In this document: positions 29 through 61,780 of the stretch, one piece after another
Layout of the letters: each line of letters opens with the position of its first letter
Numbering within the stretch: position 1 is the first letter of the stretch
NCBI GenBank assembly: GCA_031265685.1
Contig: JAISCI010000028.1
Coordinates: 31-64,030, forward strand
Source of the DNA: Clostridiales bacterium
GTDB taxonomy: Bacteria; Bacillota; Clostridia; Lachnospirales; WRAX01
Direction: 5' to 3'
Length of the DNA: 64,000 nucleotides
Notes under the pieces: model-generated
What the model was told of the DNA's origin: nothing
Database searches by the model: none
Seen by the model: the letters and a program-made list of their open reading frames with translations, nothing else
Program-made: the position numbers and the translations under genes

Positions 29-86
29 GTAGCGGCTGGCGGATCTTAATTATAATGGGTGGTGGAAATTTCAATTAGCAAATACA
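29..86. repeat. Copy 1 of a ~58-bp conserved sequence; copy 2 is at 30629-30686 in the same orientation
   Basis: The two copies share GTAGCGGyTGGCGGATCTTAATTATAATGGGyGGyGGA...TTTCArTTrrCAAATACA, roughly 85 percent identical by eye. Both lie at the 3' end of a minus-strand ORF. Confidence 0.6.
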
Positions 87-446: not shown

Positions 447-1166
447 CAGCCTGTTTTTGACAGATTGGTTGCCGGAATAGTCGAAATAGACTGTATAGTC
501 ATACGCCGCGTCGAACGGCGTTATTGTTCGGATGGAGATTGTTGCTATTGGGGAGCCTCCTTTCGGCGAGCTTGCTCTATGATTTGTTTAACAATTATTC
601 TATATAATTATTCAAGAAATATGTTCTTATTATCTTATTCGGAATAACCCCATTGCGCGGCGTGATTTGCCACGGAGCCTCATCACGCATCATTGCGCGC
701 AGTTTCCAACTACACTCAATGTTATAAAACTGACCTGATCACTCGTATGGCTTCTGCGCAAGAAAAACCATATCTTAAGAAAGACGTACCCAAGCACGAA
801 ATATTGCAAAATGCTCGGAATAGCCTGAATTATTTTATCAATTTCCACTAGTATTATCCCACATATTAGTGTTATCGTTGCCATTGAATGGCCTTGTTTC
901 TGATATGATACACCAAAATATTCCCAACGTCAACAAAAGTCACGCCTTCCCAACAACATACCGCCTGTTCCAATCATTTCCCGCAAACAGCACCAGCACG
1001 CTTTCATTGACGACAAACGTCTGCCCGGTGGCGCAAGAAACGGTGTAGATCGTCCCCTGCATATTGACGGAATATTTGCCCCGCCCAAAACCGCCGTCAC
1101 GCTTCCTTGCCGCGTCACATCGTACGGCAGCGACCGGAGGCGTTCGTTCTATCTTGATCCGCCAAG

Positions 1167-1252
1167 GAATTTTGCGTGAATCATGCAAAATTCATCCAAG
1201 CGAAAATGCTTCGATTCAAGCGAACTTCGCCCAAGTAAACTTCACTTGTTGG
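1167..1252. repeat. Hairpin-module repeat block (X/Y word family)
   Basis: GAATTTTGC-GTGAATCAT-GCAAAATTC is followed by the degenerate words CGAAAATGC, TTCGATTCAA and GCGAACTTC. Confidence 0.7.
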
Positions 1253-1459: not shown

Positions 1460-1824
1460 ATAGGCCGGTTCATACTGTCTTATAATGACTGTGAGTTTGT
1501 TCGGGAATTGTACGATGGGTTTAATATGGAGCCTGTCTCGCGGTAAAATAATCTGACAAGCCGGTATGAAAATCGAGAAAATTATAAGGAGTTGATCGTT
1601 TGGAATTACTAATAGTCGATTATTTATAGTAATTATTAGCGTTATTTCGATTCTGTTTGTTGTGTAAAATTGTAACAAATTATATATAAAAACGTTCTAT
1701 GTGTGCAGTGATTTAACGTGCATGTAGAATGTTTTTTCGTTTGTCGGAGAACAAAAAAGTTGGTGTTTTAAGTGGAGATGTTTGAACGTCTTGTTGAACG
1801 CTTACACTGAACGTCAGCCACTTT

Positions 1825-1978
1825 GACCGACGTTTGATGTTGTCGAAGACAACATCTGAATTTTGCTTGAATGAATTTTGCATCGCATTATCGTTTGAAC
1901 GAATTTTGCCTAAAGCCGCAAAATTCTGTCACACGATAATGCTTCGATTCACACAAAATTCATCAAGCCATCTTCTTA
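1825..1978 (+). repeat. G-type palindromic element, copy G1 (end1 to end2)
   Basis: End1 is GACGTTTGATGTTGTCGAAGACAACATC, itself a 9-bp hairpin. The core is made of X/Y words. End2 is CATCAAGCCATCTTCTT. Copies with the same ends occur at 3166-3243 and 5318-5460 in the opposite orientation. Confidence 0.8.
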
Positions 1979-3165: not shown

Positions 3166-3243
3166 AAGAAGATGGTTTGATGAATTTTGCGTGAATCGAA
3201 GCAAAATTCAGATGTTGTCTTCGACAACATCAAACGTCGGTCA
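3166..3243 (-). repeat. G-type palindromic element, short copy G2 (end2 to end1)
   Basis: AAGAAGATGGTTTGATGAATTTTGC-GTGAATCGAA-GCAAAATTCAGATGTTGTCTTCGACAACATCAAACGTCGGTC. This is the reverse complement of the G1 termini with a single X hairpin as core. Confidence 0.8.
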
Positions 3244-3523
3244 AAGGCGTCGCCGTAAAACGTCCTTATGAACAATAACCGACAGCAACCGCAGATTTTA
3301 GCAATACAGACATTCTACAACTTCCGCGGAATCGGATTTTCAGCGGCACGCGTACTTCTTACTCGAATAATCGGCAGCAAAGTTAGCTTAAACCCGCGCT
3401 TTGTTATTCGGGCGGGTGATTTTGGGGTTGACATTTACAAAATTACCTCATTCCGCCGATATTATGACGCTTAGCGGCTATAATTACCGGGGTTTTTGGA
3501 GCGGTTACGGGATAGACATAAAC

Positions 3524-5269: not shown

Positions 5270-5514
5270 TAAACAAAAACGCCGTGTACTCCGAGAGTAC
5301 GCAAGTTTTTGGCTGACGATGAAGAAGATGGCTTGATGAATTTTGCGTGACAGAATTTTGCGTGAATCGAAGCATTATCGTGTGGTTCAAACGATAATGC
5401 GATGCAAAATTCATTCAAGCAAAATTCAGATGTTGTATTCCACAACATCAAACGTCGATCAACGACGGGAAATCAGCCGAAAAGACGCCGATTCCATCTA
5501 TGAATACAGGTTCT
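5270..5514. repeat. F-type element, copy F', carrying a nested G-type insertion
   Basis: It shares AACGCCGyGTACTCmGAGAGTACGCAAGTTTTTGGCTGACG and TCAACGACGGGAAATCAGCCGAAAAGACGyCGATTCCATCTATGAATACAGGTTCT with 61680-61780. Those two halves are separated here by about 143 bp. Confidence 0.8.
5318..5460 (-). repeat. G-type palindromic element, copy G3, inserted inside F'
   Basis: GATGAAGAAGATGGCTTGAT...X-6-X-10-Y loop Y-3-X-6-X...CAGATGTTGTATTCCACAACATCAAACGTCG. It is near-identical to the reverse complement of G1. Confidence 0.8.
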
Positions 5515-5758
5515 GAATAGCTGGTCTCAATTATATTGAGCGGTCGATTTTTCGATTATAACGCGCGCCCGTTTTCAGTGATTACAAGAATTCTTTTGCG
5601 GGGGCGGAACTTCTCGCTGATTTTTTGCGTGCGGGTGTTTTTTTCATTTATATTGCCGCCGGGCTCCGAAAGGCGTTCAAGCGAATTTCCATCACGCGAA
5701 AACATGAAAATCGTGTCCGCGCCTGGGAACGGGATAGGCATAAAATCAAATCCCCGCA

Positions 5759-7746: not shown

Positions 7747-8280
7747 ATGGAAATTAAACTGATTGAGCAAAAGCCGCTGACTACTTTAGCTGTGCGTGAA
7801 ACCGCCTCCGGCGCGGAATTGCCGCGGGTTATCAGCGCGGGCTTCGCGCGGGTGTACGATTATATCGTCAAAACCGGCGCTCAAATCATCGACGCGCCCT
7901 ACGCCGCCTATATAAACATGGCCGGCGACAGCTGGGATATTGAAATCGGATTCCCCGTCGCTCGGGAAACGCCGGAAAACGGTTCGGAAGTTTGCGTGAA
8001 CCAGGCAAACTCCCCAGACACGAACCATCCAGAACAAATGTCAACCTTGATTCCGAAACAGCATGAGATTTTCCCGAGCGTAATCCCGGCGGGACGAGCC
8101 GCCGCCGCGCTTCACAAGGGTTCATACGCCGGTCTGGAAGCGGTTTACGGCGAGCTGTTCAAATGGGTCGGGGATAACGGCCTTAAACAGTCCGGAGCGC
8201 CGTATGACCGCTATCTCAACGACCCGTCGGTTACGCCGGAGGACGAGCTGCTGACTAACGTCGTTATACCGGTAATCTAA
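7747..8280 (+). CDS. GyrI-like small-molecule-binding domain protein with an internal ~26-aa insertion
   Basis: MEIKLIEQKPLTTLAVRE...EIGFPV...IPAGRAAAALHKGSY...YDRYLNDP...VVIPV matches the GyrI-like / AraC effector-binding fold pattern. A GGAG RBS is present. Confidence 0.7.
   Translation: MEIKLIEQKPLTTLAVRETASGAELPRVISAGFARVYDYIVKTGAQIIDAPYAAYINMAGDSWDIEIGFPVARETPENGSEVCVNQANSPDTNHPEQMSTLIPKQHEIFPSVIPAGRAAAALHKGSYAGLEAVYGELFKWVGDNGLKQSGAPYDRYLNDPSVTPEDELLTNVVIPVI
7987..8073. repeat. Hairpin-module sequence embedded in-frame in the GyrI-like CDS
   Basis: 7987-8013 (GAAGTTTGCGTGAACCAGGCAAACTCC) matches 19451-19477 (GAATTTTGCGTGAACCAAGCAAAATTC) at 23 of 27 positions, and the G/C changes fall at paired positions. 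The rest of the insert is degenerate. Confidence 0.6.
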
Positions 8281-8468
8281 TTCCACTTAGAATTTGCGCC
8301 GGATATTTTTTCGAGCTTGCGTGTCCGAATTTTGCTTAGTTCACACAAAATTCTCATCGGAATTTTGCTTGGTTCGCACAAAATTCTCATCGGAATTTTG
8401 CTTGGTTCACGCAAAATTCTTAGGGGCGGCCGAAAATATTCGGCGTCCTTTAGAGTGGAATTAGTATA
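8278..8468 (+). mobile_element. TIR-bounded non-coding element, copy A (MITE-like, no ORF)
   Basis: Left end: (ATC)TAATTCCACTTAGAATTTGCGCCGGATATTTTTT. Right end: CCGAAAATATTCGGCGTCCTTTAGAGTGGAATTAGTAT. Homologous ends occur at 59764-59931 and, inverted, at 18181-18415. It lies between two convergent genes. Confidence 0.75.
8327..8420 (+). repeat. Tandem array of a 33-bp hairpin unit, about 2.9 copies, inside element A
   Basis: The unit GAATTTTGCTTrGTTCrCrCAAAATTCTCATCG starts at 8327, 8360 and 8393. Confidence 0.9.
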
Positions 8469-8482
8469 AATAGGCTGCGCGG

Positions 8483-11027: not shown

Positions 11028-11044
11028 AAGTCATCCGGCCTCCT

Positions 11045-11157
11045 CATACTAATCCCATTTAGATTTATGGATAAAAATTTTTCAAGCGTCAGCGCGTTCG
11101 CGCGGCTTTAAGCGCGAACTGAAAAATTTTTATCCGTCTTTTGAAATGGGATTAGTA
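11045..11157 (+). mobile_element. TIR-bounded element, sister subfamily, copy D
   Basis: ATACTAATCCCATTTAGATTTATGGATAAAAATTTTT ... AAAAATTTTTATCCGTCTTTTGAAATGGGATTAGTAT. The 15-bp termini are perfect inverted repeats. The right arm supplies the last codons of the EamA ORF. Confidence 0.75.
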
Positions 11158-12089
11158 TTAAGGCAATGGCCGCCCCAGAATACGCCCGCCGTCACCAGCA
11201 GCGAGCCGGCGACCACGGGAAGCGTGATCTTGGCGCCCAGGATAAGCGCCGACGCCAGCACGGAGATTATGGGCAGCATATTCGCGATCGCGACGACAAG
11301 GACGACGTTTCCCCTTCTCATCGACATATTCCAGAAGATCGTCGCGCACAGCGACGATAACAGGATCTGGAACGCCAGCTCTGCGCCGGATTCGATCGGG
11401 TTCAGGATCGAATTGCCTAAGGATTCGCGGCTGAACCCGCGCGAATACAGCTCGCTGCCTGTTTCCGGGCTGAACGTCAGGGCAAGCGCCATAAGCGCCC
11501 CCGCCGCCAGCATAAAATAGCCTACGCCGTCGAAATCCGAGCGGACATGTTCCATATATTTACGCGTCAGTATCGAGAACAGCGCCCACGCCGCGGCGGA
11601 AGCCAGAGCGATCAGCGCGGACGGCAGTATGAAGCCGTCGGAGAGGATGTACGCGGCGTCCTGCCCGTAGCCCCCGCCCCACACGGTTATCGCGGCAGCG
11701 CCCGACGCGCTCAGGGCGAAACTGCCCCAAATCCAGCGGGACGCCTTCTTCTTCAGGACAAGCGGAGTCAGCAGCATCGCGAAGACCGGCCACATGAACT
11801 TTATTACTCCGACGGCCAGAGCTTGCTGGCGCGTCTGCGCGACGGCGGTGGACACGTATGACGAGAGCACGTAAAAGACGTACAGCGCGCCGCAGACAAA
11901 GACGTACCGCCTGGGAAGGGCGCGCATATCCCCCCAGCTCCCGTGACGCAAGCGGGACGCCGCGCAGATCAGCGCGCCGGACAGCAGGTTGACCAGCGCG
12001 CCGGAGGTAAACAGTCCAAGACGTTCCGCCAGCGTGCGGGTAAACGCCCCGCTGACACCCCAAATCACGACGGCCGCCGCGCCCAGCAA
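11130..12089 (-). CDS. EamA/DMT-superfamily transporter
   Basis: 319 aa with about 10 hydrophobic segments and a two-fold EamA-like organisation. The start is TTG. The C-terminal NTNPISKDG is encoded by element D. Confidence 0.7.
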   Translation of the reverse strand: MLGAAAVVIWGVSGAFTRTLAERLGLFTSGALVNLLSGALICAASRLRHGSWGDMRALPRRYVFVCGALYVFYVLSSYVSTAVAQTRQQALAVGVIKFMWPVFAMLLTPLVLKKKASRWIWGSFALSASGAAAITVWGGGYGQDAAYILSDGFILPSALIALASAAAWALFSILTRKYMEHVRSDFDGVGYFMLAAGALMALALTFSPETGSELYSRGFSRESLGNSILNPIESGAELAFQILLSSLCATIFWNMSMRRGNVVLVVAIANMLPIISVLASALILGAKITLPVVAGSLLVTAGVFWGGHCLNTNPISKDG

Positions 12090-12124
12090 TGTATAATTGG
12101 TTTTTATATTTACGCGCCCCCCTT

Positions 12125-12174
12125 AGACCAATCCCATTTTCAAGGACGGATAAAAATCTAAATGGGATTAGTAT
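12125..12174 (-). mobile_element. Minimal copy E of the D-type element, termini only, inverted relative to D
   Basis: AGACCAATCCCATTTTCAAGGACGGATAAAAATCTAAATGGGATTAGTAT equals the reverse complements of the D right arm and D left arm joined at GGATAAAAAT. Confidence 0.7.
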
Positions 12175-13154
12175 CACGGGCAATCGCGCAGGGTCTGGAT
12201 CAGCAGATCCATAAATCCCGGGAAGTCCAGCCGCAGCGCGGCTTCGGCGTTGGGGCGCTCCCCGCGGAAGCCCATGGTCGGGCTTTCGGTTACGTCCGTG
12301 CCCGGCGTTTCGCAGCGCAGATGACGGTAGTCGCAGACGGTCATGCCGCGCGTGAACTCGCCTTTCAGCTCCACGGTTATGTGCATGGGAGCGGCGGTGA
12401 TAAGCTCGGGACGGATCAGCCACGCGACGGCGCAGGCGTCGTGCAGGTTGGCGGCCGGAAGCGAGGCCGCTTCTTTGGACGTACCCAAAAAGAAGTTCAG
12501 CAGATCGACGGCGAACTTGGCCGTTCGGGTCGGAATCTTCGCTATCTCATCGACGCGCTCCCGCGATACGGCGCACTGCCGCGTGAGGTTAACGCCCGAC
12601 ATTTTAATCGGCACGCCGGAGTTAAACACGCGGTACGCGGCCTCCGGATCGACGAAGATATTAAACTCCGCCGCCGGCGTCCAGTTGCCGAAAGTCACCG
12701 AGCCGCCCATGAGACAGATCTCACGTATCCTCCCCGCGATCTCGGGAGCGCGGTTAAGCGCCGCGGCTATATTCGTCAGCGGGCCGGTGGGCACAAGCGT
12801 AACGCCGTCGACGCTTTTCACGGTTTCAACTATAAAGTCCACGGCGTGTTCCTTTTGCGGCGCGGTAACGGGATCGGGCAGCACTGGGCCGTCCAGCCCG
12901 CTTTCCCCGTGGAACTGCGGCGCGGTCACAAGCTCGGCCACCATCGGGCGCGAATGCCCCGCGTACACGGGTATATCGGTCCGGTCTATAACCTCCAGCG
13001 TTTTGAGCGCGTTTTTCGTTACGTTCCCGAGACAGCAATTGCCGCCGATCGTCGTAACGCCCAGCACATCCAGATGGCTCGCGGCGAGTATAATGGCGAA
13101 AGCGTCGTCGTGCCCGGGGTCGCAATCCAGTATTATTTTACGTCTGGCCTCCAT
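12174..13154 (-). CDS. Inosine/uridine-preferring nucleoside hydrolase family protein
   Basis: Translation from ATG 13154 (AGGAG RBS) gives MEARRKIILDCDPGHDDAFAIILA, the N-terminal DxDxxxDD aspartate cluster. Length is about 326 aa. Confidence 0.85.
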   Translation of the reverse strand: MEARRKIILDCDPGHDDAFAIILAASHLDVLGVTTIGGNCCLGNVTKNALKTLEVIDRTDIPVYAGHSRPMVAELVTAPQFHGESGLDGPVLPDPVTAPQKEHAVDFIVETVKSVDGVTLVPTGPLTNIAAALNRAPEIAGRIREICLMGGSVTFGNWTPAAEFNIFVDPEAAYRVFNSGVPIKMSGVNLTRQCAVSRERVDEIAKIPTRTAKFAVDLLNFFLGTSKEAASLPAANLHDACAVAWLIRPELITAAPMHITVELKGEFTRGMTVCDYRHLRCETPGTDVTESPTMGFRGERPNAEAALRLDFPGFMDLLIQTLRDCP

Positions 13155-18084: not shown

Positions 18085-18180
18085 GATTAGTCCTCCCATT
18101 GACATGATTGATACTAATCTCAATTATCCCCTGATTGAGATCAGCGCAATGCATCCCGCGCGGGGATACAATCGTCTGTC

Positions 18181-18415
18181 ATACTAATTCCATTCTATAA
18201 GGACGCCAAATATTTTTTCGGTCCGCTCCTGGAATTGTGCATCGCATTATCGAGTGACAGAAGTTTGCGCGAATCGAAGCATTATCGTGTGGTTCAAACG
18301 ATAATGCGATGCAAACTTCGTCCAAGCGATAACGCTTCGAACCAAGCAAAATTCAGAGCCGCGCGGACGCACGCGCTTAAAGAATATCCGGCACAAATCT
18401 GAATGGAATTAGTAT
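18181..18415 (-). mobile_element. TIR-bounded non-coding element, copy C (inverted relative to A and B) with a four-stem X/Y core
   Basis: ATACTAATTCCATTCTATAAGGACGCCAAATATTTTTTCGG ... AAGAATATCCGGCACAAATCTGAATGGAATTAGTAT. The core at 18232-18354 is a nested palindrome. Confidence 0.8.
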
Positions 18416-18421
18416 CAGCGA

Positions 18422-19422: not shown

Positions 19423-19512
19423 GAATTTTGCATCGCATTATCGCTTGATGGAATTTTGCGTGAACCAAGCAAAATTCGTCCACGCGATAATGCTTCGAAC
19501 CGCGCAAAATTC
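19423..19512. repeat. Three-stem nested palindrome (X/Y word family)
   Basis: GAATTTTGC-ATC-GCATTATCG-7-GAATTTTGC-GTGAACCAA-GCAAAATTC-7-CGATAATGC-TTCGAACCGC-GCAAAATTC. Confidence 0.85.
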
Positions 19513-19700
19513 CGCAGCCACGGATATTTTGATAAGTGCAAAGAGGATGCGCTTGCGCGGATACGGCGGCGTCTGCCCGGAGGGGCGAAATATTATAACA
19601 TATATCGATCACTAAAGCCATGTATATTTCAATGATTTCATGTACTGAAGGGGCGAAAAGATATAATTTACGTCGCCCCGCCATCCATTGCACATTCCTA

Positions 19701-30628: not shown

Positions 30629-30686
30629 GTAGCGGTTGGCGGATCTTAATTATAATGGGCGGCGGATTTTTCAGTTGACAAATACA
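30629..30686. repeat. Copy 2 of the ~58-bp conserved sequence (see 29-86)
   Basis: GTAGCGGTTGGCGGATCTTAATTATAATGGGCGGCGGATTTTTCAGTTGACAAATACA, located 22 nt beyond the stop codon of the FrhB-like gene. Confidence 0.6.
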
Positions 30687-40987: not shown

Positions 40988-42331
40988 CTATTGCCGCGCT
41001 TCCAGCTTCACCATGATGGTAAGATTTCCCTTTCCCCGGATCAGCTTCACCTCTACCTCGTCGCCGATCTCGCATCCGCGAACCTCCTGAGTCAGCTGCT
41101 CGCTCGTCAGAATCGGCATACCGTTGAACCCGGTAATGACGTCATTCTCCTCAATCCCGGCCTTATCCGCGGGCGACCCGTCCACAACGCCGCTTACGAA
41201 GGCGCCCGCCGAGGGCAGGTTGTACTGCTTCGCCGTCTCGTCGTTTATCGTCGAGACCGTTACGCCGAGATACGGTTTGTTGATCGAGTCCATAATGCTC
41301 TGGATAATCGGCTGGGCGATGTTCGAGGGGATGCTGTATCCCATGCCCTCCGTGTCAGTCTGCTCGATCTTGGCGGTGTTGATGCCGATCACCTTGCCGG
41401 AGAGGTTGATAAGCGGCCCTCCCGAGTTGCCGGGGTTGATCGCGGCGTTAGTCTGCAGCACCACCAGATCGCGCCCCTCGACCGATATTTCCTTATTCAT
41501 GGCGCTGACGATACCGTTGGTAGCGGTATTGCCCTCACCGAGAGCGTTGCCGATCGCGAGCACCTCGTCGCCGACGCGCAGCCCGTCGGAGTTGCCGAAC
41601 TCCGCTATGACGGCTGTTTCGACGCCCGCCTCCCTGGCGTCGGCCTTGGCCACGGACGCAACCGCCAGATCCTGGGCGGAATCGAAGCCGACAATCGCCG
41701 CTGGGATCGGCTCGCAACCCGAAATAGACACCGATACGCCCGAGGCGTCCTGCACGACGTGGTAGTTCGTCACGATATAATATTTCTGGTCGTTCTCATG
41801 AAACAGTATTCCCGAGCCAAGCCCCGTGGACCGTCCGCCGAAATAATCCCCGAACCCGCCGTAGCCGCCGTACCCTCCGCCCTCGACCGTAGAGACTATC
41901 GACACCACCGACGGCTCCACATTGTCGATGATGGCGGCGTATCCGACGCGCGGTTGGGCGGCCGTATCGCTGACGACGGACGAACTTTGCTTGAATATGT
42001 CGCCCGATACGACCGGGACCGCCGTCGGATCAGGCTCGGGCGCCGCGGCCAGCGCCCCCGGCAGAATCGCCTCCGCGACTCTCTGTCCGAAGCCTACGCT
42101 GAACCCGAAACTCGGCGCCGCTATCAGCGCCGCGACGACGACCAGCGCCAGCGCTCGCTTGAACGTCTGACTGCGGCGCTTGTCGCCGTCGCGCTTGACG
42201 GTCTCCTTATAGAACGGCTCCGGCTCGGGCGGCTCGGCGCTCGCCGGAGCGTAGACCAGCTCGCCGGAGGGCGTTTCTTCCCGTTGTTCCCCAGGGCGCT
42301 CCCCGTCAAACTCATCCTCAAAATATGTCAT
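40988..42331 (-). CDS. htrA: HtrA/DegP-family serine protease (trypsin-like domain plus PDZ), membrane-anchored
   Basis: Contains TNYHVV, DLAV, GNSGGPLIN and a C-terminal PDZ domain. One N-terminal TM helix. Confidence 0.9.
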   Translation of the reverse strand: MTYFEDEFDGERPGEQREETPSGELVYAPASAEPPEPEPFYKETVKRDGDKRRSQTFKRALALVVVAALIAAPSFGFSVGFGQRVAEAILPGALAAAPEPDPTAVPVVSGDIFKQSSSVVSDTAAQPRVGYAAIIDNVEPSVVSIVSTVEGGGYGGYGGFGDYFGGRSTGLGSGILFHENDQKYYIVTNYHVVQDASGVSVSISGCEPIPAAIVGFDSAQDLAVASVAKADAREAGVETAVIAEFGNSDGLRVGDEVLAIGNALGEGNTATNGIVSAMNKEISVEGRDLVVLQTNAAINPGNSGGPLINLSGKVIGINTAKIEQTDTEGMGYSIPSNIAQPIIQSIMDSINKPYLGVTVSTINDETAKQYNLPSAGAFVSGVVDGSPADKAGIEENDVITGFNGMPILTSEQLTQEVRGCEIGDEVEVKLIRGKGNLTIMVKLEARQ

Positions 42332-42345
42332 GCCGTTTCCCTCCC

Positions 42346-43584
42346 CTAAAAGTCAAGCCCCTTGTTTTTGAGCGTAACGGTTACTTCCTGCGCCTGCCTT
42401 CCGCCGCGCGTTATCGAAACCTTCAGCTTGTCGCCGACATTGCTCTTCTGCACGGACTCGGTAAGCTGTTCGGACGTCGCGATAGTCTTGCCGTCGATAG
42501 CCGTTATGATGTCCCCTTGGCGAAGTCCCGCGTCCGCCGCGCTCGACCCGGGCTGCACGTAATTGATATAGACGCCGACCGAAGGCAGGTTGTACATCCA
42601 TTTCAGCTGTTCCGTCACGGTCACGGTCTCGACGCCGAGATAGGGCGTGGACGTTTTGCCGGCGCTAACGATGCTGTCGGCGATCTCGGCCACGGTGTTT
42701 GATGGTATCGCGTACCCCATGCCCTCGATGCCGACCGACGACAGCTTGGCGGTGTTTATCCCGATGACATGGCCGGACGTATCGACGAGCGCCCCGCCCG
42801 AGTTGCCGGGATTGATCGCCGCGTCGGTCTGTATCGTCGTGATCAGCTGGTCGTCCTCTGTCTTGATCTTCTTGTCCACGGCGGAAATGATTCCGAATGT
42901 CGCGGATTTGCCCTCGCCAAGGGCGTTGCCGATCGCGACGACGAAATTGCCGACCTCTATCTTGGATGAATCCGCGAACACCGCCGCGTTGTACTGCCCC
43001 TTGAAGTTTTTCTCCATCTCCGCCTTAGGCGCGGATATAACCGCTATGTCGTTGGACTCGCTGCCGCCGACGTAGTTGGCGGAGACGCTCGTCGTATCGT
43101 CTAGCGAGACCTCGCAGCTGGTGGCGCCGTTGATGACATGGTAGTTGGTCAGGATGTAAACCTTATCGTCGTCCTGCTTGAAAATTATGCCGCTGCCCGC
43201 GCCGCTCGTCTCGTACTGCTGATTGAACCATCCCGCGACCGTCACCTTGACACTGATGGAGACCACGCTCTTCGCGACGGTCTTGTAGATGTCCGAGACC
43301 AGCGCCGCGCCGTCTCCGGACAGCGCGAGATATGTAGGCGCGGAACTATTCTCCGTGACCGTCATCGCCGCCGATACCGACGTGCCGGCAGGAGCGATCG
43401 CCCGTCCCACGGACAGACCTATCCCGAAACATCCGCTGCCGACGGCGACGGTCAGCAGCAGCGCCGTCACGGCTCGGAGCGCCTTCCCGCCGCGGAGATC
43501 CCGCCTGGCCTTCGGCGCGCTCTGGCTCGCGACCGGCACCGCCGGGATGATCTCGTATCCAAAATCGTCGTTGTCGTATACCAT
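42346..43584 (-). CDS. htrA: HtrA/DegP-family serine protease, tandem paralog
   Basis: Contains TNYHVI, DIAV, GNSGGALVD and a PDZ domain. One N-terminal TM helix. Confidence 0.9.
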   Translation of the reverse strand: MVYDNDDFGYEIIPAVPVASQSAPKARRDLRGGKALRAVTALLLTVAVGSGCFGIGLSVGRAIAPAGTSVSAAMTVTENSSAPTYLALSGDGAALVSDIYKTVAKSVVSISVKVTVAGWFNQQYETSGAGSGIIFKQDDDKVYILTNYHVINGATSCEVSLDDTTSVSANYVGGSESNDIAVISAPKAEMEKNFKGQYNAAVFADSSKIEVGNFVVAIGNALGEGKSATFGIISAVDKKIKTEDDQLITTIQTDAAINPGNSGGALVDTSGHVIGINTAKLSSVGIEGMGYAIPSNTVAEIADSIVSAGKTSTPYLGVETVTVTEQLKWMYNLPSVGVYINYVQPGSSAADAGLRQGDIITAIDGKTIATSEQLTESVQKSNVGDKLKVSITRGGRQAQEVTVTLKNKGLDF

Positions 43585-44267
43585 ATCCTGGCCTTCCTCT
43601 CCGATAGTTGGTAAGATCGTATCCTGTTTTTATCTATGGCCTTAGTATACCTCCCGATTTTTACGAATATTAGCGGATTTTGTGTCTAAATTGTAAACAT
43701 TGGGCTCGGATGATTTCTTAATTACAGCGGCGGTGTGGGGAGTGTCAAAATTCAAGCTGCGGTCGTTTGAAAGAAATTGATGAGAGTAAGGGGAAGCCCG
43801 GAGTATTTGCGCAGGCGGGTTTGGCTTGCCGGCTTGCGGTCGGATAGCTTTTGGCTTGGACTTGTACGCGCCTGTGTATTACAATCGAAAAATCGGCCAG
43901 TCAAGTTGTGCGCCAACACAAATGACAGCAAAATAATTATCTATCCTACAAAAACTAATCGTTACAACCCGTTATCCGCCGTTGTTCAGTGTTTAATTAT
44001 GCATTATCAGCGTTTCCCGCCGTTACCGGACCGCTCGTAAAACACGTATTGTCGGCACGTTTTTTATCGCTACAAACGACATTAACCATTCAAAAAGTGT
44101 CTACAAAAACTCGTAGACACTTTCAACCTCATACATTTACCGCCCTCTCAGCCTAGCTCAATTTCCTGTCCGCGATACGGATTACGGCGTCGGAAATCCG
44201 CGGCTGTTCTCACGGTCACTTAAAAGACGCTTCTTTCAATTCTCTTATGGAAATTTCAAACACGCTT

Positions 44268-44373
44268 GAATTTTGCGTGAATTGAAGCATTATCGTGTGG
44301 TTTGAACACGTGAAGCGCCTCAACCCGAGGGCTTACGAACATGACAGAATTTTGCTTGATTCACGCAAAATTC
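44268..44373. repeat. X/Y-word repeat block (partly degenerate)
   Basis: GAATTTTGC-GTGAATTGAA-GCATTATCG-TGTGGTTTGAAC ... GAATTTTGC-TTGATTCAC-GCAAAATTC. Confidence 0.75.
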
Positions 44374-44383
44374 GCTCACCATT

Positions 44384-44653
44384 GTGGCGCACAGGCTGGC
44401 CGCTATCGCCGTGAGTGAGGCCAGGGCGGCGCTGGACGGAGCCGGCGCGCTGAATGCGCCAATTCTACCCGGCGTCTATTCGCTGTCGCCGGTTGCGTCT
44501 GCCCGGCGTGTTCATCCGACGGAAAAGCCGCTGATGAATTTTGCGGGTTCAGGCAAAATTCAGGCGCTTATGCGCGAACTGGTAAAGATTGCTGGCAACC
44601 GCTTTGTACGCGTACGAGGTTTTGACGATTCAAACGCGCCAGAGCGTTGTTGA
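44384..44653 (+). pseudogene. Fragment of an N4/N6 DNA methyltransferase (HPTxKP motif) carrying a hairpin-module insertion
   Basis: ...ARRVHPTEKPL[MNFAGSGKIQ]ALMRELVKIAGN.... The bracketed residues are encoded by GAATTTTGC-GGGTTCAG-GCAAAATTC (44536-44561). The flanking catalytic regions are absent or degenerate. Confidence 0.5.
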
Positions 44654-44692
44654 AGGGGTTCGCAAAATAAGTTGAGGGGGTTCGCAAAATAA
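44649..44692 (+). repeat. Tandem 22-bp direct repeat, two copies
   Basis: GTTGAAGGGGTTCGCAAAATAA followed by GTTGAGGGGGTTCGCAAAATAA. Confidence 0.9.
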
Positions 44693-44862
44693 AAGGGAAG
44701 AAATACCCGGTAGGCAAGATCGAATCGGCGCTTGATGAGTTTGGTTATTTTGGCAAAGTATTTTCTGGGGCATAAAATGCGACTTTATTTATTTTGCGGG
44801 AGGCAACGAAATGGCGACTAAGAGCGTTATGAAAATCGTTACAGTGCGGAGTGAACGCGCCA

Positions 44863-44952
44863 TGAATTTTCGCGGGTTCGAAGCATTATCGCTTGGACGA
44901 ATTTTGCTTGGATCCGCAAAATTCCATCACGCGATAATGCGATGCGAAAATT
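44863..44952. repeat. Three-stem nested palindrome (X/Y word family)
   Basis: GAATTTTCGC-GGGTTCGAA-GCATTATCG-7-GAATTTTGC-TTGGATCC-GCAAAATTC-7-CGATAATGC-GAT-GCGAAAATTG. Confidence 0.85.
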
Positions 44953-45113
44953 GCCTTACCAGACGCTTGCTGGGCGCGTTTGAGAACGGCGAGAAGAGGG
45001 CGGTTAGGCGGACTGAGTTAAGAGGTCCGGTTGTGGACGCAGGGCGCGAGGAGATAGGGCGGCTGTTGGGCGGGGCATGAGATTTGGACAACGATAAGAC
45101 AGCCACTCGATGA

Positions 45114-45284
45114 TTAATGAGTGGCTGTCGGCAGATCGTCGGTTAGCTTTCTGATCCCGCGCCGGATCGCCTCCGCACGGGTCACGCCGGTAAGCTTAAT
45201 GTAACTGCTGAGAGTATTCGCGTCATCCGCGCCTAAGCGGACGAGTACCGGTTTGCTTTTGGGGTCGCTGGTAGGACATCCCAT
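45114..45284 (-). CDS. Ribbon-helix-helix (CopG/Arc-like) small DNA-binding protein; not in the ORF track (56 aa)
   Basis: MGCPTSDPKSKPVLVRLGADDANTLSSYIKLTGVTRAEAIRRGIRKLTDDLPTATH shows a beta-strand / helix / helix pattern. The stop codon overlaps a 10-bp hairpin (ACAGCCACTC...GAGTGGCTGT). The start and RBS are uncertain. Confidence 0.45.
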   Translation of the reverse strand: MGCPTSDPKSKPVLVRLGADDANTLSSYIKLTGVTRAEAIRRGIRKLTDDLPTATH

Positions 45285-45429
45285 TTTTTCATAATTTCCA
45301 ATATAATTTCTCCTTGCAAAGTCGCAATGACCGCGTTATAATGATCTTGGTCTGTGGGGCGATGGTAAGCCCGCCCTAAGTTGTGCTTTAACGGCTTGGC
45401 ACTGTCTGGGCCGTTATTTGTTGTTTGTC

Positions 45430-45576
45430 CTACGCTTTGTGCGTGAGCCAATCCTTTATCCTATCGAACAGTTCCTCGAGATTTTTCGCATCGTGGATGG
45501 CTAACAGTACATCTTTATAAGCACTTTCCCGCGCTTGTTGCACCAATGCTTCGGTTTGATTCATATCGTCTTCCAT
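45430..45576 (-). CDS. Small hypothetical helical protein; not in the ORF track (48 aa)
   Basis: A GAGAGGTGA RBS is followed by ATG. The sequence is MEDDMNQTEALVQQARESAYKDVLLAIHDAKNLEELFDRIKDWLTHKA. It lies upstream of the RHH gene on the same strand. Confidence 0.4.
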   Translation of the reverse strand: MEDDMNQTEALVQQARESAYKDVLLAIHDAKNLEELFDRIKDWLTHKA

Positions 45577-45976
45577 ATGTTCACCTCTCTCGCCGCTTAC
45601 CCAGCTGATAGCGGTTATTTCCGCCTCTTACTTTCTTAGTATATACTTTTGTATCTCAAAAATCAAGTTTTTTAATCTGAACAAAAATTCCATTGATTCA
45701 GTTTGCATTTAAGTATGGCTGACAATTTCAGGCAATCGCCCGAAGCCACAGGAAGTTACGGCGGACAGACTGACAGTGTGTAAACCGTGTCGTTAACGTG
45801 TTACTAACGCCCACCACCGCAAGCCGCTTAACTTTGGCGGGGTTGGCGGGGGTGAAAATTAAGTGAATTGTGTTGTGTGATTTTTCGGGTAAGAAATACG
45901 ATTGGGGAAAATATTATAAAGGTGCTGAGGATCTATCGAAAATCTTTCACTCAATAAAATGATAAAAAACTAAATC

Positions 45977-46005
45977 TTGCAAAAAATCACCGAATGAGCT
46001 ATAAT
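45977..46005 (+). promoter_or_regulatory. Strong SigA-type promoter
   Basis: TTGCAA (45977-45982), exactly 17 nt of spacer, then TATAAT (46000-46005). The next convincing start codon on this strand is the TetR gene at 46423. Confidence 0.65.
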
Positions 46006-46422
46006 AGATTTATCGGTGAACAATATGCGCTAAGATCGCCGAACGGACAAAAGTCTCCCACGCAACGTCTCATTACTTGAAACAATCGGAGTGTTTATCC
46101 GTGGTTTCGTAGTGGATGAGAGCCGGCTGACTATGGAGATGTTGTTGTCTTATACGCTAATGCGGGTATGGGAATTATGGGATTTGATTCCATGCGCTAA
46201 AAAGTCCGCTAAAGTTCAAATGGCGGTAAAAAGGTGCGCTGAACGCGAAAACCCGCGCGCGGTTGCCGTAATAAAGTCCCGCTTGGCTTCGTTTTGTCAG
46301 TTAAAAAATGTTAACGGAGCAAAACATAGTTCGTGATATTATGAGCAATGGGCGCCGTCTTAAAAGGCGGGGCGTGACATAGAATATTATGGAATAATCG
46401 TCGATATGAGGAGCGTATCCCC

Positions 46423-58161: not shown

Positions 58162-58165
<4 letters not shown>
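56945..58165 (-). CDS. HI0933-like NAD(P)/FAD-dependent flavoprotein (BaiN/aminoacetone-oxidase family)
   Basis: VIVIGGGASGMVCAGRAAELG...ITGKGRCNIAN...FVGETLDLDAVTGGFNL. Confidence 0.85.
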
Positions 58166-59748
<1,583 letters not shown>

Positions 59749-59763
59749 TTCGTCGTCTCCTTC

Positions 59764-59931
59764 ATACTAACGCCACTTAGATTTGCGCCGAATATTTTTT
59801 TGAGCTTGCGTGTCCGCGCGGATCTGAATTTTGCCTGGAAGAATTTTTCTTGATCACGCAACATTCTATCGCGCAAAATTCCAGGCGCGGACCGAAAAAA
59901 TATTCGGCGTCCTTTAGAGTGGAATTAGTAT
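59764..59931 (+). mobile_element. TIR-bounded non-coding element, copy B
   Basis: ATACTAACGCCACTTAGATTTGCGCCGAATATTTTTTTGAGCTTGCGTGTCCG ... GACCGAAAAAATATTCGGCGTCCTTTAGAGTGGAATTAGTAT, with an internal X hairpin at 59826-59881. It lies between two co-directional genes. Confidence 0.8.
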
Positions 59932-60449
59932 CAGATGTCGGCGGGGCGGTAGATCCCGTCGCCGTATACTGCGATTATGGAAGCGTCAACTATATCGCCG
60001 CTGATCGTCAGCGCCGCGTAGGTTGGCGCGGGGAAACCTCTCGGCCGGGACAGGCTGCCCGGATTGACCGTCAGGAGACCGCCGCCGCGCTCGATCACCG
60101 GGAAATGCGTATGACCGAAGAGACAGACGTCCGCGCCGCGCTCCAAGGCGGCGTAATACAGCCGTGTCGTGTCGCCCGCCGATACGCCGTACCGATGTCC
60201 GTGCGTCATAAAAACGACATGCCCGTCCGCCGGGATGGCAAGCCAGTCCCGATACGCCGGATCGCTCCCGTCACAGTTGCCGCGAACGGCGAACACCTCC
60301 GACCCCGGCGCGGCGGACGCCGCCGCCAGCGAATCCGGCGCGCAGTCCCCCAAGTGCAGAATCATATCGAACCCGCCCCGCGCGGCGCGGATTATCTTCA
60401 CCAGCGACGACGTTTCGCGGTGCGTGTCCGATACCACGAGAATTCTCAC
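59931..60449 (-). CDS. YfcE/MJ0936-family metallophosphoesterase
   Basis: The start is GTG. MRILVVSDTHRE...LHLGDC...GNCD...HGH...GHTH. Confidence 0.85.
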   Translation of the reverse strand: MRILVVSDTHRETSSLVKIIRAARGGFDMILHLGDCAPDSLAAASAAPGSEVFAVRGNCDGSDPAYRDWLAIPADGHVVFMTHGHRYGVSAGDTTRLYYAALERGADVCLFGHTHFPVIERGGGLLTVNPGSLSRPRGFPAPTYAALTISGDIVDASIIAVYGDGIYRPADI

Positions 60450-61594: not shown

Positions 61595-61614
61595 AAAATC
61601 GCCCTTCCTTATTT

Positions 61615-61780
61615 AGAACCTGTATTCATTAGTGGAATCGGCGGATTTTCGCGATGATTTCCTGCCGGGCGAGGAAGCGGAAAACGCCGCGTACTCAGAG
61701 AGTACGCAAGTTTTTGGCTGACGGTCAACGACGGGAAATCAGCCGAAAAGACGTCGATTCCATCTATGAATACAGGTTCT
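61615..61780. mobile_element. F-type inverted-repeat element, the uninterrupted copy
   Basis: Left arm AGAACCTGTATTCATTAGTGGAATCGGCGGATTTTCG and right arm CGAAAAGACGTCGATTCCATCTATGAATACAGGTTCT are ~37-nt imperfect inverted repeats. There is an internal 8-bp hairpin, GCGTACTC-AGA-GAGTACGC. The right arm encodes the last 6 codons of the DUF4330 gene. Confidence 0.75.

What the first reader, a model, noticed from the sequence alone, without database searches (positions are those of the whole stretch)
59764..59931. MITE-like non-coding elements with ATACTAATTCCA...TGGAATTAGTAT termini carry the hairpin modules as variable cargo
Three elements share about 40-bp ends: A (8278-8468), B (59764-59931) and C (18181-18415, inverted).
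- Left end: ATACTAAyyCCAyTyAGATTTGyGCCGrATATT.
- Right end: AATATTyGGCGTCCTTwkAGArTGGAATTAGTAT.
- The terminal 14 nt form a perfect inverted repeat. About 10 divergent nt follow, then a shared GCCGAATATTTTTT box.

Their interiors differ completely. A holds a 33-bp hairpin in three tandem copies, B holds a single X hairpin, and C holds a four-stem X/Y palindrome.

A sister subfamily, D (11045-11157) and E (12125-12174), has the same first 8 nt (ATACTAAT) and the same architecture.

All copies are intergenic, have no ORF, and mostly lie inside minus-strand transcription units. I saw no obvious target-site duplication. They could be non-autonomous mobile elements or intercistronic RNA structures (terminator, stabiliser or processing sites).
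Basis: seen in the sequence. Interest (0 to 1): 0.68.

Follow-up and report, generated by a model that had tools for sequence, protein, structure and literature searches.

The report
Small hairpin-shaped jumping DNA elements (MITEs)
These are copies of a small, non-coding "jumping" DNA element (a MITE) that inserts at T-N-A sites, often at the stop codons of tightly packed genes of an uncultured Clostridiales bacterium; it is a real and probably undescribed family, but of a well-known kind.

Summary
The window has five elements: A 8276-8466, B 59765-59930, C 18182-18414, D 11047-11157 and E 12126-12173. Each has one "alpha" end and one different "beta" end. All are AT-rich (35-45% GC against 57%), cannot code for a protein, and fold into one long hairpin.

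If the element is read as TACTAAT...ATTAGTA, it is flanked by a 3-bp direct repeat T-N-A:
- A: TAA/TAA
- B: TCA/TCA
- C: TCA/TCA
- D and E: TCA/TTA and TTA/TCA

A metagenome scan found two complete copies in other organisms, with TGA/TGA and TTA/TTA.

Mobility is supported by three kinds of evidence:
- One outside copy interrupts an IS4-family transposase gene. Removing the element plus one 3-bp copy restores a gapless match to a 93%-identical intact homolog; the 2-bp and 0-bp models do not.
- At B's site, two distant relatives with the same gene order have only 11-nt and 32-nt junctions.
- Short-read contigs of the same organism break inside A, B and D.

Verdict: a MITE family, most likely moved in trans by a DDE transposase of the IS5/IS1031 type (a TNA duplicator). 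The parent was not found. It is a new member of a known kind, of moderate interest.

The parts
59765..59930 (+). Element B (166 bp), written alpha to beta on the + strand. It lies between the Metallophos_2 gene (59931-60449, minus strand) and the iPGM gene (58162-59748, minus strand).
59762..59764 (.). B left target-site duplication, TCA. On the minus strand it reads TGA and is followed directly by the AGGAGAC ribosome-binding site of iPGM.
59931..59933 (.). B right target-site duplication, TCA. It is the TGA stop codon of the Metallophos_2 gene.
59765..59801 (+). B alpha end: terminal repeat TACTAACGCCACT, non-complementary 'bubble' TAGATTTGC, and second-stem arm GCCGAATATTTTTT.
59895..59930 (+). 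B beta end: second-stem arm AAAAAATATTCGGC, bubble GTCCTTTAG, and terminal repeat AGTGGAATTAGTA.
59802..59894 (+). B variable core: GC-rich third stem (TCCGCGCGG / CGCGGA) enclosing two nested X stems (GAATTTTGC-type half-sites at 59826, 59841, 59858, 59873).
8276..8466 (+). Element A (191 bp), alpha to beta on the + strand. The duplication is TAA at 8273-8275 and 8467-8469. The left terminus lacks one base. The core is three tandem 33-nt X hairpins (8324-8422). It lies between the convergent GyrI-like and Fe-ADH genes.
18182..18414 (-). Element C (233 bp), alpha to beta on the minus strand. The duplication is TCA at 18179-18181 and 18415-18417. The core is an X/Y four-stem palindrome. It lies between the GntR-family gene and the ECF S-component gene.
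11047..11157 (+). Element D (111 bp), subfamily 2, alpha to beta on the + strand. Its flanks are TCA (11044-11046) and TTA (11158-11160). Its left end abuts the ribosome-binding site of the HAD gene. The EamA ORF ends inside it.
12126..12173 (-). Element E (48 bp), a minimal subfamily-2 copy consisting of the two ends only. Its flanks are TTA (12123-12125) and TCA (12174-12176); the latter is the TGA stop of the nucleoside hydrolase gene.

Best explanation

**Anatomy.** Each copy has four features:
- 13-15 bp terminal inverted repeats, TACTAATYCCAYT...ARTGGRATTAGTA.
- Two conserved but non-complementary subterminal motifs: alpha ..TAGATTTGY.. and beta ..GTCCTTWRR...
- A second stem whose sequence differs between lineages but always stays self-complementary.
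- A core of one or more short hairpin modules.

**Mechanism (inferred).**
- A transposase supplied in trans binds the two ends.
- It cuts the target with a 3-nt stagger at T-N-A.
- Repair duplicates those 3 bp.
- The stop codons TAA and TGA are themselves T-N-A. An insertion there recreates the stop codon on one side and leaves the next gene's ribosome-binding site intact on the other. Such copies survive in very short operon junctions (B, E).
- The elements are then presumably transcribed as part of the operons, as about -55 to -60 kcal/mol hairpins.

**Shown:** the anatomy, the 3-bp T-N-A duplication, the empty sites, and multi-copy status.
**Inferred:** the DDE (IS5/IS1031-like) nature of the transposase, read-through transcription, and any effect on the RNA.
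For: **Target-site duplication.** Five of seven complete copies have a perfect duplication, and all four middle bases occur: A TAA/TAA, B TCA/TCA, C TCA/TCA, L011 TGA/TGA, L012 TTA/TTA. Chance for at least 5 of 7 is about 0.013.

**Filled versus empty site.**
- The L011 copy interrupts an IS4-family transposase gene.
- The intact 93%-identical homolog (P0134, on L156) reads GCTTGT-TTA-AGCTTACC.
- L011 reads GCTTGT-TCA-[101 bp]-TCA-AACTTACC.
- In tblastn, only the model 'remove the element plus one 3-bp copy' gives a gapless 338-aa alignment across the junction. The 0-bp model needs a gap. The TA 2-bp model puts the junction in a different frame and needs three gaps.

**B's site in relatives.** The gene order HPF-Ham1-Metallophos_2-iPGM is conserved.
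- L154 (51% identity) has an 11-nt junction, TAG-AGGTGATATAT-TTG.
- L152 (45% identity) has a 32-nt junction.
- Removing B plus one duplication copy leaves TGA-AGGAGACGACGAA-ATG.

**Multi-copy status.** There are five copies in 64 kb. Short-read contigs from SRR14710922 end inside A, B and D.

**Other supporting points.**
- No coding capacity, 35-45% GC against 57% for the window.
- Each copy folds into one long hairpin, z-scores -6 to -18, except the 48-bp E (z -3).
- Orientation relative to flanking genes is mixed.
- Both outside copies sit in or beside other insertion sequences.
- IS1031-group elements of the IS5 family are reported to insert at 5'-TNA-3' and make an exclusive 3-bp repeat (PMC12016507).
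Against: - No autonomous partner with these terminal repeats was found. The window has none among the 30 ORFs scanned.
- The IS5-family element next to the L012 copy has unrelated ends, GGGCAYCTCTAAAAACC.
- The published IS1031-group terminal repeat of ISLrh (GAACCTGTCTAGTATCT) does not resemble TACTAATTCCA.
- D and E have mismatched flanks.
- Only seven complete copies were available, and the whole source genome could not be searched.
- No closely related strain was available to show a polymorphic site within the species.
- The strict palindromy of the second stem and the conserved asymmetric bubble are not explained by transposase binding alone.
Confidence: 0.85

Rival explanations
1. The primary identity is a functional intercistronic RNA structure (processing site, stabiliser, terminator or translational insulator), conserved for its fold rather than for mobility.
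For: - Very stable hairpins.
- The second stem differs in sequence between lineages while staying complementary: 12 of 12 pairs in B, D, L011 and L012, with different sequences.
- The internal-loop motifs are conserved in three organisms.
- B, C, D and E lie inside minus-strand operons.
Against: - Both orientations occur relative to transcription, and A lies between convergent genes.
- Two outside copies lie inside or next to dead insertion sequences rather than in operons.
- Relatives with the same operon lack it.
- No terminator or promoter consensus.
- No Rfam family reaches threshold.
- The target-site duplication is not expected for a native RNA element.
- A secondary RNA effect, such as RNase III cleavage as reported for other bacterial MITEs, is not excluded.
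Confidence: 0.06
2. An IS630/mariner-type MITE (like the Correia or RUP elements) with a TA duplication. The element would then be CTAAT...ATTAG, flanked by TA.
For: - Every copy reads ..TA-CTAAT...ATTAG-TA...
- An IS630-like transposase fragment lies beside the L012 copy.
- The nearest relative carries a different, TA-flanked palindromic element at B's site.
Against: - The bases outside TA are direct repeats with matching middle bases in 5 of 7 copies, which a TA duplication does not predict.
- In L011 the TA model does not restore the gene: the alignment needs three gaps and a different frame at the junction. The 3-bp model is gapless.
Confidence: 0.03
3. REP/BIME-like extragenic palindromes spread by a RAYT (IS200/IS605-type single-strand HUH transposase). 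The ATACTAAT ends would then be part of the hairpin rather than transposase-binding inverted repeats.
For: - The window is full of 9-nt half-site hairpin modules (X GAATTTTGC, Y GCATTATCG): 99 hits against 18.5 expected, arranged as nested palindromes in intergenic DNA.
- These modules also occur outside the elements and inside a second repeat family.
Against: - HUH single-strand transposition makes no target duplication, but a 3-bp duplication is shown here.
- No Y1/RAYT gene was seen among the 30 ORFs scanned.
- This may still apply to the free X/Y hairpin arrays, which were not resolved.
Confidence: 0.04

Closest known systems
MITEs derived from IS5-family insertion sequences, IS1031 group, and their eukaryotic analogues (Tourist MITEs of PIF/Harbinger)
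   Same: - A 3-bp duplication of a T-N-A (or TWA) target.
- Short terminal inverted repeats.
- Small, AT-rich and non-coding.
- Insertion in or next to genes.
(Target preference of the IS1031 group: PMC12016507. PIF/Harbinger TWA: PMC4482050.)
   Different: - The terminal sequence TACTAATYCCA does not match the one IS1031-group end compared (ISLrh).
- No cognate transposase was found.
- The two ends carry conserved, different subterminal motifs.
- The body is an almost perfect long hairpin with a modular core.
Correia elements (Neisseria), RUP (Streptococcus pneumoniae) and ERIC/IRU (enterobacteria): classical bacterial MITEs. This comparison rests on my own knowledge.
   Same: - 100-170 bp palindromic non-coding repeats.
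- Located in intergenic or operon-internal positions.
- Co-transcribed with neighbouring genes.
   Different: - Those families duplicate TA, whereas this one duplicates T-N-A. The TA model failed the L011 test.
- There is no promoter consensus at the ends here.
BrickBuilt MITE of Porphyromonas gingivalis (PMC4596501)
   Same: A MITE frame ('leader' and 'tail' with IS5-family-like inverted ends) that encloses a variable number of internal tandem repeats. This is comparable to A's three 33-nt units and to the variable cores of B and C.
   Different: - BrickBuilt repeats are 23-nt direct repeats, not hairpin modules.
- Its duplications are irregular.
- Its ends match known ISPg elements. Here the duplication is regular and the parent is unknown.
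REP/BIME arrays with RAYT transposases. This comparison rests on my own knowledge.
   Same: Short imperfect palindromes clustered in alternating orientation in intergenic DNA. This resembles the X/Y hairpin modules found inside and outside the elements.
   Different: - The framed elements have inverted-repeat ends and a target duplication.
- No RAYT gene was seen.

Membership tests
MITE (generic) | Small size (tens to a few hundred bp) and no coding capacity | tested here: met
   Copies are 48-233 bp. The only ORFs that touch them are tails of flanking genes.
MITE (generic) | Terminal inverted repeats | tested here: met
   13-15 bp repeats. They are perfect in C, D, L011 and L012. There are 1-2 changes in A, B and E.
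MITE (generic) | Target-site duplication of fixed length | tested here: met
   A 3-bp T-N-A duplication is perfect in 5 of 7 copies. It is confirmed by the L011/L156 filled and empty pair.
MITE (generic) | Multiple dispersed copies in one genome | tested here: met
   Five copies in 64 kb. Short-read contigs break inside A, B and D. The whole-genome count is not available.
MITE (generic) | Presence/absence at a site (empty sites) | tested here: met
   Two cases: L156 against L011, and the B site against L154 and L152. Both comparisons are with paralogous or distant sequences, not with sister strains.
MITE (generic) | A cognate autonomous element with the same ends in the same or a related genome | not testable with these tools
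   None in the window. 
IS5 family, IS1031-group derivative | Exclusive 3-bp duplication of 5'-TNA-3' | tested here: met
   The family property is taken from PMC12016507.
IS5 family, IS1031-group derivative | Ends similar to those of a known IS1031-group element | tested here: not met
   The ISLrh end GAACCTGTCTAGTATCT and the neighbouring IS5-family end GGGCAYCTCTAAAAACC do not resemble TACTAATTCCA. Only these two ends were compared; ISfinder was not available.
IS630/mariner-type MITE (Correia, RUP) | TA target duplication | tested here: not met
   The TA model does not restore the interrupted gene in L011. The flanks outside TA are direct repeats.
REP/BIME (RAYT-mobilised) | No target duplication, and an associated Y1 (RAYT) transposase | tested here: not met
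   A 3-bp duplication is present. No Y1 transposase was seen among the 30 ORFs scanned. The full genome was not searched.
Any Rfam RNA family | Score at or above the family's gathering threshold | tested here: not met
   No hit at the gathering threshold. There were only sub-threshold matches to generic miRNA-precursor hairpins.

The most novel reading that the evidence does not exclude
The elements may be more than passive MITEs.

The conserved asymmetric internal loop, the second stem that changes sequence but stays paired, and the X-type hairpin core are kept across three organisms. This could reflect a structure-specific function, for example:
- recognition of a folded (cruciform or hairpin) substrate by an unusual transposase; or
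- a host-exapted RNA hairpin that uncouples neighbouring cistrons.

The MITE may also act as the vehicle that seeds and amplifies the free X/Y hairpin modules that litter this genome.

A related possibility is that D and E moved the EamA transporter gene as a MITE-bounded composite:
- the outer flanks are TCA...TCA and the inner flanks TTA...TTA;
- the predicted empty site is a tight junction between the nucleoside hydrolase gene and the HAD gene, TGA-GGAGG.
Probability: 0.15. Interest if true: 0.6.

Novelty: new member of a known kind. Interest (0 to 1): 0.36.

Why it matters
- **A defined new repeat family.** It adds a well-characterised MITE family with a T-N-A 3-bp duplication to the poorly studied repeat content of uncultured Clostridiales.
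- **Assembly and annotation.**
  - It explains why short-read assemblies of this organism fragment at these points.
  - It flags gene ends altered by insertion: the EamA and GyrI-like C-termini, and stop codons supplied by the duplication.
- **Tolerated insertions in tight operons.** Stop codons that fit the T-N-A target let a transposon land in a junction of about 13 nt without destroying either gene.
- **A practical search key.** The end sequences and the duplication rule can be used to look for the unknown parent transposase.
- **Expression questions.** It remains to be tested whether a hairpin of about -60 kcal/mol placed directly before a ribosome-binding site changes expression of essential genes such as iPGM.

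Tried and rejected
- **Genome collection scan** with the beta-end pattern CCTTNNAGANTGGAATTAGTAT. It gave two chance hits in coding DNA of unrelated MAGs.
- **Metagenome scan** with the alpha-end pattern. It returned 16 loci; 14 were chance hits and 2 were real.
- **Two viral-collection scans.** Only chance hits, with no paired ends.
- **blastn against plasmids.** No match.
- **The IS5-family transposase beside the L012 copy as the parent.** Rejected. Its ends, defined from five independent insertion contexts, are GGGCAYCTCTAAAAACC.
- **IS630-like fragment beside L012 and the TA duplication model.** Rejected by the L011 reconstruction.
- **Outward-facing promoter in the ends (TTCGGC-17-TAGTAT).**
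  - Considered from the sequence.
  - The scanner finds no promoter.
  - A start about 7 nt downstream of the second hexamer would fall inside or past the ribosome-binding sites of iPGM and HAD.
- **Inversion between D and E to explain their mismatched flanks.** Rejected. It predicts TGA at the inner flanks, but TTA is observed.
- **Solo end-like 12-mers at 18111-18122 and 43637-43648.** Not significant with the end HMMs (E 35 and 14).
- **Getting the rest of the 73.8-kb NCBI contig.** Only short Logan contigs were returned. One look-up failed.

Full report
**1. What is in the sequence**

Reading the five stated loci confirms the shared ends.

Statistics:
- The terminal 12-mer with up to 2 mismatches occurs 13 times, against 2.3 expected.
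- The genome-wide repeat finder links the same loci (families D12, D13, D17 and inverted pairs I9, I14, I21, I25).

Each element has two different ends:
- Alpha: TACTAATYCCAYT-TAGATTTGY-(second-stem arm).
- Beta: (second-stem arm)-GTCCTTWRR-ARTGGRATTAGTA.

HMMs built from the two end types find exactly five alpha and five beta ends in the window. Each element has one of each. The next-best hits are at E >= 0.1.

Refined coordinates:

| Element | Coordinates | Length |
|---|---|---|
| A | 8276-8466 | 191 bp |
| B | 59765-59930 | 166 bp |
| C | 18182-18414 | 233 bp, inverted |
| D | 11047-11157 | 111 bp |
| E | 12126-12173 | 48 bp, inverted |

GC content is 35-45%, against 57% for the window.

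A, B and C share a backbone in this order:
- the alpha end;
- the GCCGRATATT second stem;
- GAGCTTGCGTG;
- a TCCGCGCGG third stem.

They differ in the core. A has three tandem 33-nt X hairpins. B has two nested X stems. C has an X/Y four-stem palindrome. D and E form a second subfamily, and E is little more than the two ends.

**2. Host and context**

- Pfam hits include germination protease, SLH domains, sporulation-type sigma factors and housekeeping operons. These indicate a spore-forming Firmicute.
- The protein database names the source 'MAG: Clostridiales bacterium', on a contig of 73,765 bp.
- No transposase was seen among the 30 ORFs scanned.
- B lies between the metallophosphoesterase and iPGM genes of a minus-strand operon.
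- C lies between a GntR-family gene and an ECF S-component gene.
- D and E flank an EamA transporter gene, inside an operon that runs from a nucleoside hydrolase gene to a HAD gene.
- A lies between convergent genes.

**3. The target-site duplication**

If the element is read as TACTAAT...ATTAGTA, the flanks are 3-bp direct repeats:

| Copy | Left | Right |
|---|---|---|
| A | TAA | TAA |
| B | TCA | TCA |
| C | TCA | TCA |
| D | TCA | TTA |
| E | TTA | TCA |

The constant T and A could be read as an extension of the inverted repeat. The middle bases, however, match as direct repeats, not as complements.

The single metagenome scan, with the alpha-end pattern, returned 16 loci. Fourteen are chance hits. 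Two are complete elements in other organisms:
- L011: 101 bp, flanks TGA/TGA.
- L012: 101 bp, flanks TTA/TTA.

So 5 of 7 copies have a perfect duplication and all four middle bases occur. The chance probability is about 0.013.

**4. Empty sites**

*(a) L011.*
- The L011 copy interrupts an IS4-family transposase gene.
- A homolog search found an intact protein 93% identical to it (P0134). Its DNA (L156) reads ...GCTTGT-TTA-AGCTTACC....
- L011 reads ...GCTTGT-TCA-[element]-TCA-AACTTACC....
- In tblastn of P0134 against three reconstructions, only 'element plus one 3-bp copy removed' gives a gapless 338-residue alignment across the junction.
- The no-duplication model needs a one-residue gap. The TA model needs three gaps and puts the junction in a different frame.
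- An unrelated frameshift lies about 17-18 codons upstream of the junction in the L011 copy.

*(b) B's site.*
- Two distant relatives keep the gene order DUF4330-HPF-Ham1-Metallophos_2-iPGM.
- Their Metallophos_2-iPGM junctions are 32 nt (L152) and 11 nt (L154: TAG-AGGTGATATAT-TTG).
- Removing B and one duplication copy gives TGA-AGGAGACGACGAA-ATG, which has the same architecture.
- B therefore inserted exactly at the stop codon. The duplication supplies the stop codon upstream and keeps TGAAGGAG, with the ribosome-binding site, downstream.
- E likewise uses the TGA stop of the nucleoside hydrolase gene.

*(c) The nearest relative.* In the relative with 81% protein identity (L005), the post-stop position holds a different, TA-flanked palindromic element of about 170 bp.

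**5. Repetitiveness in the genome**

- Short-read (Logan) contigs of SRR14710922 that carry window proteins end inside B on both sides.
- Another such contig runs from inside A to inside D.
- This is the behaviour of multi-copy repeats in an assembly graph.

**6. Structure**

- Every copy folds into a single long hairpin.
  - Free energies are -55 to -61 kcal/mol for the 101-166 nt copies.
  - Z-scores are -6 to -18.
  - The 48-bp E is weaker: -14.6 kcal/mol, z -3.
  - A and C were not folded.
- The hairpin has a symmetric internal loop of 6-8 nt, formed by the alpha and beta motifs.
- The stem inside the loop has a different sequence in each lineage but is fully complementary in each:
  - GCCGAATATT in A, B and C;
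  - GGATAAAAAT in D;
  - GCCATCCGAA in L011;
  - ATACATTACG in L012.
- The L011 and L012 cores are single hairpins: GGCTCTGCG-ATGATTCAC-CGCAGAGTC and GATTCTGCG-AATGTTCAA-CGCAGAATC. They resemble the window's X hairpin, GAATTTTGC-TTGGTTCAC-GCAAAATTC.
- One X-type hairpin is therefore a core part of the family. The window's genome has expanded and diversified it.

**7. Tests of the RNA reading**

- Orientation relative to transcription is mixed: B and D one way, C and E the other.
- No sigma-70 promoter or intrinsic terminator consensus lies in the elements.
- Rfam gives nothing at the gathering threshold, and only sub-threshold generic miRNA hairpins at relaxed thresholds.
- B and D are most simply read through by operon transcription. 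This is an inference.
- The hairpin base ends 1-3 nt before the ribosome-binding site.

**8. Which transposase**

- A fixed 3-bp T-N-A duplication is the reported signature of the IS1031 group of the IS5 family (PMC12016507).
- It is also close to the TWA of PIF/Harbinger elements and their Tourist MITEs (PMC4482050).
- The parent was not found.
  - The IS5-family element 15 nt from the L012 copy has ends GGGCAYCTCTAAAAACC.
  - The published ISLrh end does not match either.
- Scans of plasmid and viral collections were negative.

**9. D and E**

- Their mismatches are reciprocal: the outer flanks are TCA...TCA and the inner flanks are TTA...TTA.
- D's two terminal repeats are identical over 15 nt, so decay of its duplication seems unlikely.
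- A composite D-EamA-E unit (11047-12173), moved by its two intact alpha ends, would explain the outer TCA pair.
- It also predicts a tight ancestral junction, TGA-GGAGGCCGGATGACTT-ATG, between the hydrolase and HAD genes.
- This could not be tested.

**10. Verdict**

- This is a genuine MITE family with a 3-bp T-N-A duplication and a modular hairpin body.
- It is active or recently active in a family-level clade of uncultured Clostridiales.
- It is a new member of a known kind.
- The unresolved points are:
  - the parent transposase;
  - the reason for the conserved end asymmetry and strict palindromy;
  - the relationship to the free X/Y hairpin arrays.

Noticed in passing
window 1164-1245, 1334-1460, 1858-1962, 3182-3210, 5338-5428, 19423-19513, 44268-44376, 44536-44562, 44883-44941: Free arrays of 9-nt half-sites outside the elements.
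- The half-sites are X (GAATTTTGC) and Y (GCATTATCG).
- They are arranged as nested palindromes, for example X> Y> X> Y> | Y< X< Y< X<, with 12-20 nt spacing.
- There are 99 hits with up to 1 mismatch, against 18.5 in shuffles.
- How they spread is unknown: decayed MITE cores, REP-like mobility or slippage.
   Followed up: partly
window 1821-1977 (-), 3166-3246 (+), 5327-5462 (+): A second repeat family.
- Its left frame is AAGAAGATGGYTTGATGAATTTTG.
- Its right frame is CAGATGTTGTCTTCGACAACATCAAACGTCGGTCAAAG.
- It also encloses one to several X/Y modules.
- The 5327-5462 copy appears to be inserted into a copy of a third family: compare 5305-5480 with 61700-61780.
   Followed up: partly
window 5456-5519, 61610-61651 (-), 61722-61780; L157 1-33 and 7681-7700; L004 1-30: A third repeat, ..GGGAAATCAGCCGAAAAGACGYCGATTCCATCTATGAATACAGGTTCT..
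- It often lies just upstream of gene starts (HPF, PTA).
- Short-read contigs break in it too.
- It could be a mobile repeat or a shared 5' regulatory region.
   Followed up: no
window 29-86, 5510-5567, 30629-30686: A fourth short repeat, GTAGCGGYTGGCGGATCTTAATTATAATGGGYGG.., 86% identical between two copies (family D9). Its nature is unknown.
   Followed up: no
window 11044-12176: D and E have reciprocal mismatched flanks: outer TCA/TCA and inner TTA/TTA. Together they bracket the EamA transporter gene. This may be a MITE-bounded composite that moved as one 1,127-bp unit.
   Followed up: partly
L005 1314-1484: In the nearest relative (81% protein identity), the position right after the metallophosphoesterase stop codon holds a different palindromic element of about 170 bp. 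Its ends are TAGGGCGTGTTCACACTA...TAGTGTGAACACGCCCTA, it has TA flanks, and a terminator-like hairpin follows it.
   Followed up: no
L012 1-180 and 288-1457: The L012 copy sits in a nest of insertion sequences.
- On one side is an IS630-like transposase fragment with an A9 run.
- Fifteen nt from the other side is a complete IS5-family transposase (350 aa, NF033581), in an element with ends GGGCACCTCTAAAAACC.
- That IS5-family element is very widespread: a 64%-identical homolog, P0085, is recorded on 285 contigs.
   Followed up: yes
window 43650-46420: About 2.8 kb with no convincing gene, lower GC (47-50%), hairpin modules and short ORF fragments. It is possibly a decayed mobile or foreign region.
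   Followed up: no
window 18111-18146: TGA-TACTAATCTCAAT-TATCCCCTG-ATTGAGATCAG is a 35-nt mini-palindrome that begins like the element terminus. It lies 35 nt from C, just upstream of the ECF gene's ribosome-binding site. It is not significant with the end HMMs (E = 35), so it is either a decayed third-subfamily copy or chance.
   Followed up: partly
window 40988-42331 and 42346-43584: Two tandem paralogous HtrA-like (Trypsin_2 + PDZ) protease genes, 71-73% identical over the matched DNA stretches. This is an ordinary gene duplication.
   Followed up: no
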